A stretch of 64,000 nt of DNA, taken from Eledone cirrhosa (lineage: Eukaryota). A model generated the notes under the pieces. It made no database searches and was not told the origin of the DNA. It worked only from the letters and a program-made list of their open reading frames with translations. Below, in pieces: positions 6,501-60,500 of this stretch. The first letter of the stretch is position 1. The number at the start of each line of letters is the position of its first letter. The position numbers and the translations under genes were made by a program. The stretch covers positions 23,126,001 through 23,190,000 of the forward strand of contig OZ024758.1 in the NCBI GenBank assembly GCA_964016885.1. The letters are read 5' to 3'.

Positions 6501-9500
6501 CTGACTACTTCTACCAGTGGAGACTTCTGGTGACCTCGGCCCTAGGGCTACCTCCCTACTTACCACCATAGGTGCTGAGCTGGCTACCTCTACCAGTGGA
6601 GACTTCTGGTGTCCTCGGTCCTAGGGCTACCTCCCTACTTACCACCATAGGCGCTGAGCTGGCTACCTCTACCAGTTGAGACTTCTGGTGTCCTCGACCC
6701 TAGGGCTACCTCCCTACTTACCACCATAGGCGCTGAGATGGCTACCTCTACCAGTGGAGACTTCTGGTGTCCTCGGCCCTAGGGCTACCTCCCTACTTAC
6801 CACCATAGGCGCTGAGCTGACTACTTCTACCAGTGGAGACTTCTGGTGTCCTCGGCCCTAGGGCTACCTCCCTACTTACCACCATAGGCGCTGAGCTGAC
6901 TACTTCTACCAGTGGAGACTTCTGGTGTCCTCGACCCTAGGGCTACCTCCCTACTTACCACCATAGGCGCTGAGATGGCTACCTCTACCAGTGGAGACTT
7001 CTGGTGTCCTCGGCCCTAGGGCTACCTCCCTACTCACCACCATAGGCTCTGAGCTGACTACTTCTACCAGTTGAGACTTCTGGTGACCTCGGCCCTAGGG
7101 CTACCTCCCGACTCACCACCATAGGTGCTGAGCTGGCTACCTCTACCAGTGGAGACTTCTGGTGTCCTCGGCCCTAGGGCTACCTCCCTACTCACGACCA
7201 TAGGTGCTGAGCTGGCCAGCTGCAGGTGTGAGCCTCGCGAGATGGAATGGCTTTTCCAGCGCGTCTCCCTTACCATCCTCCAGGGAAACGCCTTCTCCAT
7301 TCTGTCCGCTGGGGCTGTGGGGAGGCCACCTATATGATTGACTGACTTGTCATTTTATCAGTCAGATACTCACTGATCAACTCTGTATCTTTTAGAGCCA
7401 CTTACAATTTGATTTATGTTGTTGTTTAATACACTGAACAATTTATCAATTAGATAAGACTGTTTGCCTTAACCTTTTAATGTTCAAACCGGCCAAAACC
7501 GACCAGAATTCTCTACCTTTTTCTGTTGAAACTGGCTGTAACTGGTCATTTAAACTGATGTTAAGGTATTGTTCTCAAAATAAATACTTTCAAAATCTCA
7601 TAGATTCGATATTATGTGAGATAATTATGTGAGGTAAAGCCTTTACCATGAAAATATAATAGTATGTATAGAGTAATGTGAATGCTAAAGGTTTAATCTG
7701 ACTGATTGAAAACAATCAGTCAGTACTCCTCCTTCCATTATTACCTTTGATATCTCTTGTAGCTATGAGTGGGGCCAATATGGACCAGCCCATAGATAAA
7801 AAAAATTTGACTTGATAGAAAAAAAGAAAGTATTGTCACTCAGTGACTCCAAATTACTCAAGAACAGGTCTCAAAATTAGATCAGCATTAAAAAAGCAAA
7901 ACTTTGTTGATAGTGTAATTATAAAGTGTCTGCAGTTGTTCGTATATGAAGCTTTACGAGGCTGTAAACCAGTCATGGGCAACCCACGGCCCGCGAACCT
8001 TTCTGAATGGCTTGCCTAAGTGAAATCTTTCTGATTTTTTTACCCCAACTTTTCAGTCGTAATTTATCTTTCTATCATTTTTAAATCATATTAAAGGAAT
8101 ATTTGAAATCCGACCGTCTATTTTCATTGAAATGTGTGTCTCTGTCTATATGTCTTTGTGTCTGTCTATCTGTATGTCTTCCTCTGTCTGTTTGTCTCTG
8201 TCTGTCTCTGTCTGTTTCTCTCTGTCTGTGTGTCTCTCTCTGTCTGTCTGTCTGTCTATGTATGTATGTATGTCTGTCTCTGTCTGTTTATCTCTGTCTC
8301 TCTGTGTCTGTCTGTCTCTCTGTGTCTGTCTGTCTCTCTGTGTCTGTCTCTCTGTGTCTGTCTGTCTGTCTGTCTCTGTCTGTCTGTCTGTCTCTGTCTG
8401 TCTGTCTCTGTCTGTCTGTTTGTGTCTCTCTGTGTGTCTGTGTGTCTGTGTCTGTTTGTCTGTCTGTCTCTGTCTGCGTCTGTCTCTGACTGTCTGCGTC
8501 TGTCTCTGACTGTCTGCCTGTCTGTCTGTCTGTGTATGTATGTCTGTCTGTGTGTCTGTCTGTATGTCTGTATGTCTGTCTGTCTCTCTCTCTCTGTCTC
8601 TGCCTGTCTCTGTCTGTCTGACTGTCTGTCTGTTTTAACTTCTTTAAAATCTATTTTTGTTATTTATATATTTTACTTTCCTAGCTGAAAGTGTTGCAAA
8701 ATCCGGACTATTTGAAGAGTGCTTGTCAGAATAAATTAGTTTTCCAGAAGTTCATTCCACCATCATTCCTAAATAATGGCACTAACATCACTGCTCTACA
8801 AACAATCTTCTGTACTCAGATTGTTAGTGTTCTGAATGAAACCAAATTAACAGAGCAATTTATTAAAATAGTGAAAAATTTCCCTGAATTGATGAAACAG
8901 GTAATTAGAGTTTTGCTTTTGTTGCTAATTAACTTAAATCTAATGTTAGATTTTCCAGTTCCCCTAGATCAGAGCTTCTCAAACTTTTTTGGCCACTGCC
9001 CCCCTCCACCCCCCTCCCCCTCCCTCACGGGCATGTAATACCCTCGATGCCCCGCACCCCTCCCTATTTCCAGAGAGGACCTCTCTACGCGCAAATTGTA
9101 AATAATATATAATAAATAATATAATTGTTTCTACTTTTGGCACAAGGCCAGCAATTACCCAGTGCATTACTGGTACTTTATTTTATCGACCCCGTAAGGA
9201 TGAAAGGCAAAGTTAACCTCGGCGGGAATTGAACTCAGAATGGCAAGGGCAGTAACTCTATGCATCAAAGCATGGCGTCCGACCCTCTACTGATACTGCC
9301 AATCCACCGCCCTTATATATATATATATATAATAAATAATATAATATATACTATGTATAAATAAATATTATATATTTTTTATTTTACTATATTTATATAT
9401 AATATGTATCATTTGATATTTAATATACTCTTATATCATCTCTATTGCCACCTCCCACCACCTCCTTAGCCCCCCCCCCCCCCCCCCCGTGGTGGTGGTA

Positions 9501-57500: not shown

Positions 57501-60500
57501 CCAGTTGCTAGTACTGTCTATCGGTCGCAACTCCAGGTAGAAGGAGCAAAATGAAATAAAGTGTCTTGCATCGCCTGGTCCAGGAATCAAACTCACAACC
57601 TCAAGATTGTGAATCCAACTCTCTAACCACTCAGCCACACGTCTTAACTAAGACACCCTTAAAATTCCATCAGGATTTATTCCATCATGCAAATATGTAA
57701 ATTATTTTTCTGTAACATATGTCCCATTCTGATGGACCTCTGCCCCAATTAGAGAGGACATCAGCTATGGTTTTCACCAGGGGTTTGTCATAATTTGCAA
57801 AATACACTGAATTACAGTGAAAAGCATTCTATATTACAAATGAGAGATATAGTTCAGTGGCTTAACTAATAATAATTGTTTCAACTTTTGGCACAAGGCC
57901 AGCAATTATTCCAGTGTATTACTGGTACTTTATTTTATCGACCCCCGTAAGGATGAAAGGCAAAGTTAACCTCGGCGGGATTTGAACTCAGACCGTAAAG
58001 GGACGTAACTATGCTAGAAAGCATGGCGTCAGTCCGACCCTCTACCGATACTGCCAATTCACCACCCTTATAATAATAATAATAATAATAATAATAATAA
58101 TGGTTTCTACTTTTGGCACAAGGCCAGCAATTACCCAGTGTATTACTGGTATTTTATTTTATCGAACCCGTAAGGATGAAAGGCAAAGTTAACCTCGGCG
58201 GAATTTGAACTCAGAATGGCAAGGGCCGTAACTCTATGCTTCAAAGCATGGCGTCCGACCCTCTACCGATACTGCCAGTCCACCGCCATAATAATAATAA
58301 TGAAAATTATTGTGTACAGCACTCGGGTGCACTACAACTCATCAAAGGTGTATGTTTAGTACATAGAATTATGTACAAATATGAGGAAAGTGAACAATGT
58401 ATGAGTCTTGTTACACACACAGATACATGTGTACGTGTGTATGGAGGGGGAATATCAGGTGTAGTGTTGGAGAATTTCGGGAAGCATGGAAGTTTTGAAG
58501 GATGCAGTGTCCCGACAGCTAACAATAGATGACATCTCTCATGAAAGAAATATAATTAGATTATTACTCTCCCCTTCATTCTACACATCTCACACATCTT
58601 ATAAACACCACGCATCTCAACGTACACCCACTTACATCTCTCTCTCCACCACCTGACCTTGTTACCCGGAGATTTACCCATTTGCATTGTCGAGGCTTCC
58701 AAACGACTTATAGATATTTAATTCGATTATTGTTGTAAGATATCACTCTGTTCTCAAAATAGTAAAAATTGTCAATGTTTTCATTATATTTGGAATTTTT
58801 TAGATTACCAAAGCATTGCAGAGCGTATCCGGTTCCCAAGATCCCGCTAAATCTATCTGTCTAGCAGTGAAAAGTATCAACATGACATCTGTTCCTAATT
58901 CCAATTTTGACCTCAATTCACATCTGGCCAATGTTTGTTCCATCAATTTCACAAACTTAGAAAAAGAATTCTCACAGTTCTCACAAGTCTTACAAATACG
59001 AAAAAAGGTAACTTTCATTTCAGTAATTTCTTGTTTGGGGGAGTCGGGCTGCTAACTGTAAGGTTTTTGTCTTCACTGGCGGCTCACCTAATCGAGGTAA
59101 CTTGTGATGCTCCTGAGGGTACTTAGTTGTTCCAGCGCACCAGCCTCGCCATCACCCAAGGTAACACTGCGAGCGTGCTGGCTTGCTTCAAAAATTATTA
59201 GAGAGGTTTTCCAGTGCTCTTCCCGATATTGTTATCTTTTGCTCTGGAAGCAGTTCGTTTATCTACCTCTTTCATCTGCATTTTGTTGTATGTGGTCCTA
59301 GATGTGTGTATTACCTTCTTATGTGGTTTTTCTTTTTTTTTTGTCTTTATATTTATATTATATTGACGGTTATGCCTTAATAAAATCAAATATTATATAT
59401 AAACTTCAGAAAATAGATCTTATATTTTTTAAATGGACACAACATCACATGTGTGATGAGATTTAGTTGGATGTTTTCTTAAGTATGAGCAGCTGATTAT
59501 AGCCAGTTTGGACAGAAAGAGGTGAGAGAATTCTGGCCGGATATGGCTGGTTTAAATGCTTAAAGGGTTAACTAGCAAATTAACCTATTTTCTCTTCTTT
59601 TTTCTGTTTAAAAGCGAAGTACAGAAACTCCAAAACAACTAAATCCACTCTACATCCTTAACCTTGTTGTGGAAGTATGGGAGAAGCTATCTGTTTTGAC
59701 CAATTCCAGCCAGAAAACTTTCTGGAAGCCTGTGAACACATTGATGAAAAATCTGATTCTAGAAAGTTCTTTGCATGATGGAAATAGGATGAAACAGAAA
59801 GACATATACAAGTAAGTAACCAATTCTTATCTTGTGTAAGAGAGATTAACATGTACCAAAATGGCTAAAACAGTGTTATTTCCTCTGATAGTTTCAATAT
59901 TGTTGTTTATACTTCATTAATATTGCTTGAACTCTTTTTAATTCAACATATAGGCTCTATATCTGTTTTATTTCCTCTGATCTTTTCAATATGCTCTTAA
60001 TCCTTTAGCATTTACATTGCTCTATATGTACTATTGTATTTTCATAGTAAACACTTTATCTCACATAATATTGAGTTCACGAGATTTTGATATTATATAT
60101 TTTGAGGACAATATTTTAGCAGCTGGTTATGGCCGGTTTGAACAGAAAGAGGTGAGAGAATTCTGGCCGGATATAGCCAGTTTAAATGCTGAAGCGTTAA
60201 ACTATTGATACAAGCTGTTTAGATTTGATAATTATTATTAAATGCAGCATTCAGTAATCAGAAAAAGCCAAACTTGCTATCTTCAATTTGTTGCACATAA
60301 TTATCTCACATAATATGGAATCTATGAGATTTTGATATTATTTATTTTGAGAACAATACCTTAACATCAGTATGAGTGGCCAGTTATGACCAGTTTAACA
60401 GAAAGAGGTGAGAGAATTTTGGCCAGATACAGCCAGTTTAACATCAGTTCGAGTGGCCGGTTATGGCCAGTTTAAACAGAAAGAGGTGAGAGAATTCTGG

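What the first reader, a model, noticed from the sequence alone, without database searches (positions are those of the whole stretch)
8685..59007. Hypothesis: the module is an amplified ABCA-type exocytoplasmic or lipid-binding helical unit
Seen: B exons read W/L-xx-hydrophobic-C-x-N-xx-hydrophobic-F-xx-hydrophobic-F...C-(helix)...PGF. From memory, ECD1 of ABCA1/ABCA4 has a similar disulfide-closed helical segment, and ABCA12/ABCA13 have greatly lengthened ECDs. A saposin-like or apolipoprotein-like bundle is an alternative. If correct, this would be a lipid conduit or carrier whose length is set by exon-block duplication. No TM, Walker or signal motifs are in the window, so this is inference only.
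Basis: inference. Interest (0 to 1): 0.7.

Follow-up and report, generated by a model that had tools for sequence, protein, structure and literature searches.

The report
Giant octopus ABCA with repeated lid
This stretch is the middle of a giant octopus lipid-pump gene in which the small cap that sits once on top of the human retinal pump ABCA4 has been copied ten or more times in a row, a design shared by many invertebrates whose purpose is still untested.

Summary
The window holds 42 plus-strand exons in a strict four-exon phase cycle, reading as 2,466 residues without a stop; all 20 cysteines lie two per B exon. Octopus relatives (45-56% identical) are 5,025-7,118-residue full ABCA transporters, and the window matches only their first extracellular domain (ECD1). 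The A+B part of the module is homologous to residues 147-256 of human ABCA4, the unresolved 'lid': by a chain of profile matches, and independently because exons D-A-B match ABCA4 exons 4-5-6 in phase and size (140, 128-137, 198 nt), with the first cysteine at the same codon. Protostome relatives carry 6-23 such units. Not shown: lipid binding, a cavity, the disulfide, or a 'conduit set by length'; fold searches were inconclusive, and since both ends of the array return to one base, serial lobes (capacity) fit better than a longer tube. No support for saposin or apolipoprotein homology. Unexpected: a furin-type site in the ECD1 base loop of 27 of 29 invertebrate relatives, and another in the window. 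Verdict: new architectural variant of a known family.

The parts
303..61497 (+). 42-exon segment of a giant ABCA gene, 2,466 aa of ECD1, open at both window ends
   Evidence: no stop, strict phase cycle; tblastn of each Octopus protein hits 41 of 42 exons, none outside the model
303..532 (+). exon C0 (phase 0-2)
3949..4109 (+). exon D0 (2-1)
6121..6254 (+). exon A0 (1-0)
8685..8900 (+). exon B1 (0-0, two Cys)
9619..9851 (+). exon C1
10736..10893 (+). exon D1
12225..12361 (+). exon A1
13713..13928 (+). exon B2
16279..16511 (+). exon C2
17800..17936 (+). exon D2
18542..18678 (+). exon A2
21183..21380 (+). exon B3
22351..22565 (+). exon C3
26025..26164 (+). exon D3
27703..27839 (+). exon A3
28338..28535 (+). 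exon B4
29421..29635 (+). exon C4 (chimera: 5' like C7, 3' like C3)
29974..30113 (+). exon D4
30616..30752 (+). exon A4
31413..31610 (+). exon B5
32492..32706 (+). exon C5
33045..33184 (+). exon D5
33687..33823 (+). exon A5
34484..34681 (+). exon B6
35565..35779 (+). exon C6
36118..36257 (+). exon D6
36760..36896 (+). exon A6
37557..37754 (+). exon B7
39125..39339 (+). exon C7
40891..41039 (+). exon D7
41590..41726 (+). exon A7
44492..44707 (+). exon B8
46214..46425 (+). exon C8
47518..47675 (+). exon D8
48454..48590 (+). exon A8
51213..51422 (+). exon B9
53043..53257 (+). exon C9
54452..54591 (+). exon D9
55921..56048 (+). exon A9 (GC donor)
58804..59007 (+). exon B10
59615..59811 (+). exon C10
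61367..61497 (+). exon D10
28091..37849 (+). recent tandem duplication, 3.07-kb genomic unit including introns, 99.3-100% identical
58999..59617 (+). R-K-K-R furin-type consensus formed across the B10|C10 splice junction (model residues 2355-2358)

Best explanation
The window encodes about ten of roughly twenty repeats in the first extracellular domain of a giant full-size ABCA lipid transporter of an octopod. Each repeat (exons D-A-B-C, about 230 aa) is a copy of the distal ECD1 subdomain of ABCA4-type transporters: a helical stalk (D and C) and a two-cysteine helical cap (A+B, the 'lid'). The cassette begins and ends in the same phase, so unequal crossing-over adds or removes whole modules in frame. 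Most likely working (inferred): the ATP-driven core pushes membrane lipid into the ECD tunnel as in ABCA1/ABCA2, and the glycosylated string of amphipathic lobes in the lumen or outside the cell serves as a built-in high-capacity lipid acceptor or scaffold. Copy number would set capacity or bulk rather than the length of one tube, because the first and the last unit both attach to the same membrane-proximal base. Shown: gene structure, ABCA identity of orthologues, location in ECD1, homology of A+B to ABCA4 147-256, copy-number variation. Inferred: continuity of this gene with its own ABC core, the disulfide, the stalk geometry, lipid binding, direction of transport.
For: Stop-free 42-exon frame with strict phase cycle, 55 N-glycosylation sequons against 29.6+-5.0 (0 of 1000 shuffles), no TM. 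Orthologues P0011/P0012/P0013 carry PF00005, PF12698, PF23321; in P0011 TM1 is 24-42, TM2 starts near 5589, NBDs at 5891 and 6796; the window matches only residues 2137-4307. Profile seeded with window A+B units finds 6-23 units in each of 34 named protostome proteins, median spacing 226 aa over 443 gaps; unit number tracks ECD1 length (r=0.98, 24 proteins). A profile of 274 mid-array units scores 25 of 25 held-out first units at 32-60 bits and 26 of 26 last units at 24-54 bits, reversed controls at most 8.9. A profile of 8 terminal units alone hits ABCA4 147-256 at E 7.6e-11 with both cysteines aligned and matches the mid-array alignment at 93% probability, E 2.6e-7. ABCA4 exon borders c.302/303, c.442, c.570, c.768 (PMC5749174 passages; PMC6752325 supplement rows) give 140 nt (2-1), 128 nt (1-0), 198 nt (0-0); window modes are 140, 137 (one 128), 198 nt with the same phases, and the first Cys is codon 15 in both ABCA4 exon 6 and B3-B7. 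ABCA4 residues 101-300 form the distal ECD with a hydrophobic cavity through tunnel and lid (PMC8501128, PMC7932691 passages). Helical hydrophobic moment 0.256 against 0.199+-0.007 (0 of 500); AlphaFold gives an all-helical two-module model, pLDDT 74, pTM 0.60, with the same order of helices as the confidently modelled first unit.
Against: No window exon or mid-array profile hits ABCA directly in PDB sequences; the link is transitive, and the window-only profile matches first units weakly (E 0.003, 10% probability) and last units moderately (E 5e-5, 67%). The terminal-unit profile finds ABCA4 but not ABCA1 or ABCA7. C and D exons are poorly conserved between copies (only 2 of 9 C and 5 of 9 D exons beat all shuffles), and exon C does not match an ABCA4 exon in size. 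The Argonauta model (4,510 aa, partial) has the array but no ABC part. Amphipathic helices are expected of any helical bundle and do not prove lipid binding. No functional, expression or localisation data were found.
Confidence: 0.6

Rival explanations
1. Same gene identity, but the array is a structural spacer, tether or sorting element (holding membranes or lipid lamellae apart, or directing the pump to a vesicle) and only the terminal units handle lipid.
For: Mid-array units have drifted far from the ABCA4-like terminal units; the ECD evolves much faster than the core (82% against 96% identity between two Octopus species); copy number between the same anchors differs freely among octopods; heavy glycosylation. 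[quoted passage not shown]
Against: The cysteine pair and the hydrophobic pattern are kept in essentially every unit across molluscs, nemerteans, brachiopods, priapulids and chelicerates; dN/dS about 0.5 between older window copies shows constraint, though not what for.
Confidence: 0.22
2. One reading: the modules stack into one continuous hydrophobic conduit whose length is set by exon-block number, bridging to a distant acceptor membrane.
For: The lid of ABCA4 is hollow and continuous with the tunnel; the two-module model has pTM 0.60, so some packing between modules is predicted; ECD1 length scales with unit number.
Against: Both ends of the array join one base (first unit at about residue 140, last about 490 before the ECD1 end), so a tube would need a registered out-and-back hairpin, which single-module gains and losses in the middle would unbalance. 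No cavity could be measured with these tools.
Confidence: 0.13
3. The window gene is a separate secreted repeat protein (saposin-like or apolipoprotein-like bundle, or an ABCA fragment paralogue) with no transporter attached.
For: No TM or NBD in the window; several database relatives are array-only fragments (P0001, P0002, P0008); identity to Octopus proteins is only 50-56%.
Against: Three Octopus proteins join the same ordered modules to a complete ABCA core and are collinear with the window from C0 to D10; only one such gene per species turned up; saposin domains have six cysteines (recalled), the module has two; no Pfam family reached its cut-off for 20 window exons.
Confidence: 0.05

Closest known systems
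Octopus giant ABCA proteins (O. vulgaris P0011, O. bimaculoides LOC106873159, O. sinensis LOC115214454) and Argonauta hians Ahia01_000186300
   Same: Collinear module order, 50-56% identity in single-copy flanks (46% Argonauta), same cysteine pairs and basic site after module 10.
   Different: Different number of central modules (window 10 between the B1 and B10 anchors; about 7-9 in Octopus models, about 17 in Argonauta). Annotated only as uncharacterised or ABC-domain proteins; mid-array modules carry no Pfam family.
Human ABCA4 (and ABCA1/ABCA7) ECD1 distal 'lid' region
   Same: A+B unit aligns to ABCA4 147-256 with C205/C230; exons 4-5-6 match D-A-B in phase and size; N-terminus of the octopus protein aligns to ABCA4 (E 4e-26), ABCA1 (7e-21), ABCA7 (8e-19).
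   Different: One unit in ABCA4 against 6-23; ECD1 about 600 aa (established) against about 5,540 aa in O. vulgaris; a furin-type site in the base loop of the invertebrate proteins.
Vertebrate ABCA12 (teleost forms 4,100-6,000 aa) and ABCA13 (about 5,050 aa)
   Same: Giant ECD1; nearest vertebrate hits among long proteins; a bivalve member scores 1078-1232 bits against 17 fish ABCA12, 1114-1161 against 4 ABCA13, and 1112 against ABCA1 and ABCA4; last unit detectable in 4 of 4 ABCA13 (23-36 bits).
   Different: No regular array detected: one unit in ABCA13, two or three marginal ones in fish ABCA12. Orthology not tested with an outgroup. Part of the ABCA13 extracellular domain is coded by one 4.8-kb exon (title of a cited paper seen), not by four-exon cassettes.
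Saposin-like proteins and exchangeable apolipoproteins
   Same: All-helical, amphipathic, extracellular.
   Different: No sequence, Pfam or fold match found; two cysteines per module; ancestry traced to the ABCA lid instead.

Membership tests
ABCA subfamily full transporter | Two NBDs with Walker A (GxNGAGKTT), signature (LSGG/YSGG), Walker B (hhhDEP), H-loop | tested here: met
   Met in the three Octopus orthologues; not in the window itself.
ABCA subfamily full transporter | TM1 - large ECD1 - TM2-6, repeated in the second half, with regulatory domains | tested here: met
   Hydropathy and Pfam PF12698/PF23321 in P0011 and P0013; P0012 lacks its N-terminus.
ABCA subfamily full transporter | Window exons on the same transcript as the ABC core | not testable with these tools
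   Flanking DNA of this eukaryotic genome is not available; inferred from collinear orthologues.
ABCA subfamily full transporter | ATP-dependent lipid transport | not testable with these tools
   Needs biochemistry.
ABCA4-type ECD1 lid unit | Sequence homology with the two cysteines in register | tested here: met
   Transitive; direct mid-array-to-PDB searches gave nothing.
ABCA4-type ECD1 lid unit | Exon phases and sizes of ABCA4 exons 4-6 | tested here: met
   against borders read from variant names in PMC5749174 and PMC6752325.
ABCA4-type ECD1 lid unit | Same three-dimensional fold with hollow interior | tested here: inconclusive
   No significant fold match; the lid is unassigned in ABCA4 structures; cavity not measurable.
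ABCA4-type ECD1 lid unit | Disulfide between the paired cysteines | not testable with these tools
   Inferred from invariance; C205-C230 is not among the disulfides resolved in PMC8501128.
ABCA12/ABCA13 clade | Groups with ABCA12/13 to the exclusion of ABCA1/2/4/7 | tested here: inconclusive
   Bit scores slightly favour fish ABCA12; the tree had no ABCA1/2/4/7 outgroup.
ABCA12/ABCA13 clade | Long ECD1 built of the same module | tested here: inconclusive
   One clear unit in ABCA13; marginal windows in fish ABCA12 at 511-735 and 2836-3060.
Saposin-like (SAPLIP) | Six conserved cysteines in about 80 residues (recalled) | tested here: not met
   Two cysteines per 230-aa module, 20 in 2,466 aa.
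Exchangeable apolipoprotein | Family profile or fold match | tested here: inconclusive
   No Pfam hit at cut-off; not listed in fold searches.

The most novel reading that the evidence does not exclude
The pump carries its own lipoprotein: the array is a covalently built-in apolipoprotein that is filled with lipid by the ATP-driven core and then cut by a furin-type convertase, so that a multi-lobed lipid particle is nicked open or shed. The R-X-[KR]-R site in the ECD1 base loop (27 of 29 invertebrate proteins), the R-K-K-R site after module 10 in the window and three relatives, a K-R-D at residue 642 of Octopus, and the pair of sites flanking the insertion in 34 of 72 fish ABCA12 would be the cut points; vertebrate ABCA12/13 ectodomains would be decayed versions of the same array.
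Probability: 0.15. Interest if true: 0.85.

Novelty: new variant of a known kind. Interest (0 to 1): 0.58.

Why it matters
The lid of ABCA ECD1 is the part that cryo-EM of ABCA4 and ABCA2 could not assign, and the long N-terminal region of ABCA13 has been described as having no homology or conserved domain (PMC7948424). This gene family shows that the lid is an autonomous, exon-bounded, repeatable domain, and supplies hundreds of divergent copies for modelling it, for reading ABCA4 variants in residues 101-300, and for expressing a single module for structure and lipid-binding work. It also makes a testable proposal about how invertebrates, and possibly fish skin ABCA12, export lipid with a giant ectodomain: built-in capacity, perhaps with convertase processing. 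The genes themselves are already in databases as ABC-domain proteins; I found no paper on the repeat architecture in ten searches of a library that lacks most subscription journals, which is not proof that none exists.

Tried and rejected
Word-index homologue search with the B-exon alignment, proteins of 127-2000 aa: 0 hits among 8000 scored; the relatives are longer than that range. Pfam on 20 window exons: none at cut-off; Pfam on the 10 first hits: no ABC or lipid-binding family, P0003 is a bacterial HYR-repeat false positive and was dropped. PDB sequence searches with B-exon profiles and a two-module profile: no ABCA. ESM Atlas with B8 and with P0002: no usable lead. Fold searches of the two-module model: no Foldseek match at E<=0.001, best VIA Z 5.6 to a designed bundle; ABCA, saposin and apolipoprotein chains not listed. 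N-terminal model (mean pLDDT 55, first unit 80-88): top four Foldseek rows are ABCA7/ABCA1 but at E 0.1-0.75; VIA uninformative; a single module was not folded alone. Self-BLAST of seven vertebrate ABCA12/13 listed no internal repeats in the ECD range. The careful tree did not finish; the quick tree was used, Priapulus left out for lack of an anchor motif, and unnamed database rows left out. The Bulinus model P0014 has a scrambled domain order and is the one case with units outside the apparent ECD1. The sources of the unnamed hits P0002 and P0004-P0010 stayed unknown, so the range beyond named protostomes is open. Minus strand: 9 splice-bounded candidates, not followed; no tblastn hit there. 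Rfam: one tRNA-like hit only. Two Stargardt papers had no exon-border variants; one was not held; 9 of 20 supplementary files of PMC5749174 were not searched. An oyster paper links 'Abca1' to white shell (passages) but I could not tie it to this gene.
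Full report
OBSERVATION. The window is AT-rich animal DNA full of micro- and minisatellites. A splice-site scan and manual reading gave 42 plus-strand exons from 303 to 61497. Joined, they read as 2,466 residues without a stop, in a strict cycle B (phase 0-0), C (0-2), D (2-1), A (1-0), ten and a half times. All 20 cysteines lie two per B exon. There are 55 N-glycosylation sequons against 29.6+-5.0 expected (0 of 1000 shuffles), no transmembrane stretch and no Walker or signature motif. The model is checked independently: tblastn of each of three Octopus proteins hits 41 of 42 exons and nothing else, and the exon missed differs between them. 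Modules are 13-36% identical when old and 100% in the recent block.

IDENTITY. The B-exon profile found 10 proteins among 1.84 billion; one was a bacterial false positive. The best, from Argonauta hians (partial, array only), led to three Octopus proteins of 7,118, 5,025 and 6,779 residues with ABC-transporter, ABC2-membrane and ABCA regulatory Pfam domains. In O. vulgaris TM1 is at 24-42, TM2 near 5589, and both NBDs have Walker A, signature, Walker B and H-loop, so ECD1 is about 5,540 residues. The window is collinear with residues 2137-4307, inside ECD1, at 50-56% identity to Octopus and 46% to Argonauta in single-copy flanks: an octopod outside those species, by inference. That this gene continues into its own ABC core is inferred, since the flanks could not be read.

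WHAT THE MODULE IS. Three lines. (1) Sequence: a profile grown from window A+B units finds 6-23 units in each of 34 named protostome proteins (cephalopods, bivalves, gastropods, a chiton, Lineus, Lingula, Priapulus, Tachypleus, ticks), median spacing 226 residues, all within ECD1 except in one scrambled model; unit number tracks ECD1 length, r=0.98 over 24 proteins. A profile of 274 mid-array units recognises 25 of 25 held-out first units (32-60 bits) and 26 of 26 last units (24-54 bits), reversed controls at most 8.9 (the mid units had been located with a profile that had seen terminal units). A profile of 8 terminal units alone hits human ABCA4 147-256 at E 7.6e-11 with C205 and C230 in register, and matches the mid-array alignment at 93% probability. 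Against this, mid-array profiles do not hit ABCA in the PDB directly, the window-only profile matches first units weakly, and ABCA1 was not found by the unit profile. (2) Gene structure: variant names place ABCA4 intron borders at c.302/303, c.442, c.570 and c.768 (passages of PMC5749174; supplement rows of PMC6752325). Exons 4, 5 and 6 are thus 140 nt (2-1), 128 nt (1-0) and 198 nt (0-0). Window exons D, A, B have the same phases and modal sizes 140 (5 of 11), 137 (8 of 10, one 128) and 198 nt (5 of 10, related copies), and the first cysteine is codon 15 of the exon in ABCA4 and in B3-B7, codon 14-19 in the rest. Exon C has no size match; it may be a fusion joint (inference). (3) Models: AlphaFold gives an all-helical two-module model (pLDDT 74, pTM 0.60) whose A+B part has the same order of strand and helices as the confidently modelled first unit. 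Fold searches were inconclusive, as expected if the lid is missing from solved models: it could not be assigned in ABCA4 (passages of PMC7932691 and PMC8501128) or ABCA2 (preprint passages). PMC8501128 defines the distal ECD as residues 101-300, about one module.

HOW IT GROWS. 28091-37849 is a 3.07-kb tandem block, introns included, 99.3-100% identical. Exons C4-C6 are chimeras: the first 132 nt match C7 at 129 of 132, the last 83 nt match C3 (59) better than C7 (40), the mark of in-frame unequal crossing-over inside exon C. Two units are identical over 3,071 aligned bases, so the exact count may depend on the assembly. An older pair gives dN 0.33, dS 0.69. Between the same anchors the window has 10 modules, Octopus models about 7-9 and Argonauta about 17, some lacking the symmetric B exon, which may be splicing or annotation. 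Window units resemble most the unit near residue 1160 of other molluscs, while heterobranch and caenogastropod snails expanded later units, so expansions look lineage-specific. The core tree keeps 19 protostome proteins on one side of a branch (SH-aLRT 100) with bivalves, gastropods and octopods each grouped, which fits one orthologous gene; it has no ABCA1-type outgroup.

MECHANISM. In ABCA1, ABCA4 and ABCA2 the ECD holds a hydrophobic tunnel that continues into a hollow lid and contains lipid. I therefore favour an ATP-driven lipid exporter whose ectodomain is a string of lid-bearing lobes acting as a built-in acceptor or scaffold (0.6). The helical hydrophobic moment is above all 500 shuffles, which fits but does not prove this. 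A purely structural or sorting role is the main rival (0.22), with ABCA13 as precedent (PMC7948424 passages). An independent saposin- or apolipoprotein-like protein is unlikely (0.05).

UNEXPECTED. An R-X-[KR]-R convertase consensus sits 79-87 residues before the end of ECD1 in 27 of 29 invertebrate proteins with an anchor (30 examined; the two ticks lack it), against 0-0.6 expected per ECD1 from shuffles; 11 of 72 fish ABCA12 and 0 of 4 ABCA13 have it. The window has R-K-K-R across the B10|C10 junction, kept in O. bimaculoides, Argonauta and P0002, reduced to K-R in O. vulgaris and O. sinensis, and not seen at that place in other molluscs. In fish ABCA12, 34 of 72 have strict sites on both sides of the long insertion. 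Cleavage is not shown; the furin reading of the motif is established knowledge, and one paper search found nothing on ABCA12 cleavage.

COMPARISON AND VERDICT. Member of ABCA: met through orthologues. The genes are in databases; the modular reading was not found in ten literature searches (listings only, except the passages and supplement rows cited). New variant of a known kind, interest 0.58.

Noticed in passing
window:28091-37849: Near-perfect 3.07-kb tandem block; two units identical over 3,071 aligned bases, so either a very recent or polymorphic expansion or an assembly over-count.
   Followed up: partly
window:56049-56054: GC-AG intron: exon A9 uses a GCAAGT donor.
   Followed up: yes
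window:18041-18103: Intronic copy of the last part of exon D2 with its donor site, about 150 nt downstream of the original; read from the sequence, my script check did not capture it.
   Followed up: partly
window:22908-25135: 2.2-kb (AT)n-type microsatellite tract inside the C3-D3 intron.
   Followed up: no
window:1037-1912, 2496-3623, 6436-7216, 27012-27423, 46880-47292, 60361-60675, 62538-64000: Intronic minisatellites of 109, 60, 79, 67, 48, 78 and 63 bp units.
   Followed up: no
window:9140-9300 and 18 other places; window:14790-15010 and about 40 others; window:42350-42500 and 4 others: Three dispersed short repeat families on both strands; the second also forms 72-bp arrays at 53543-54403 and 56197-56774; the third has a tRNA-like head (Rfam RF00005, 42356-42413). 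Probably octopus SINE/MITE families (recalled, not tested).
   Followed up: partly
P0008 (unnamed, 2,497 aa): Array-only protein with ten units and its own recent near-identical 196-aa expansion; source unknown, may extend the family beyond the named protostomes.
   Followed up: partly
P0052-P0130 (fish ABCA12): Teleost ABCA12 models are 4,100-6,000 aa with paired cysteines along ECD1 and clustered furin-type sites near residue 445 and about 755 before the ECD1 end.
   Followed up: partly
P0001, P0011: Some modules in the Argonauta and O. vulgaris models lack exon B, the only symmetric (0-0) exon; possible in-frame skipping of the cysteine-bearing exon.
   Followed up: no
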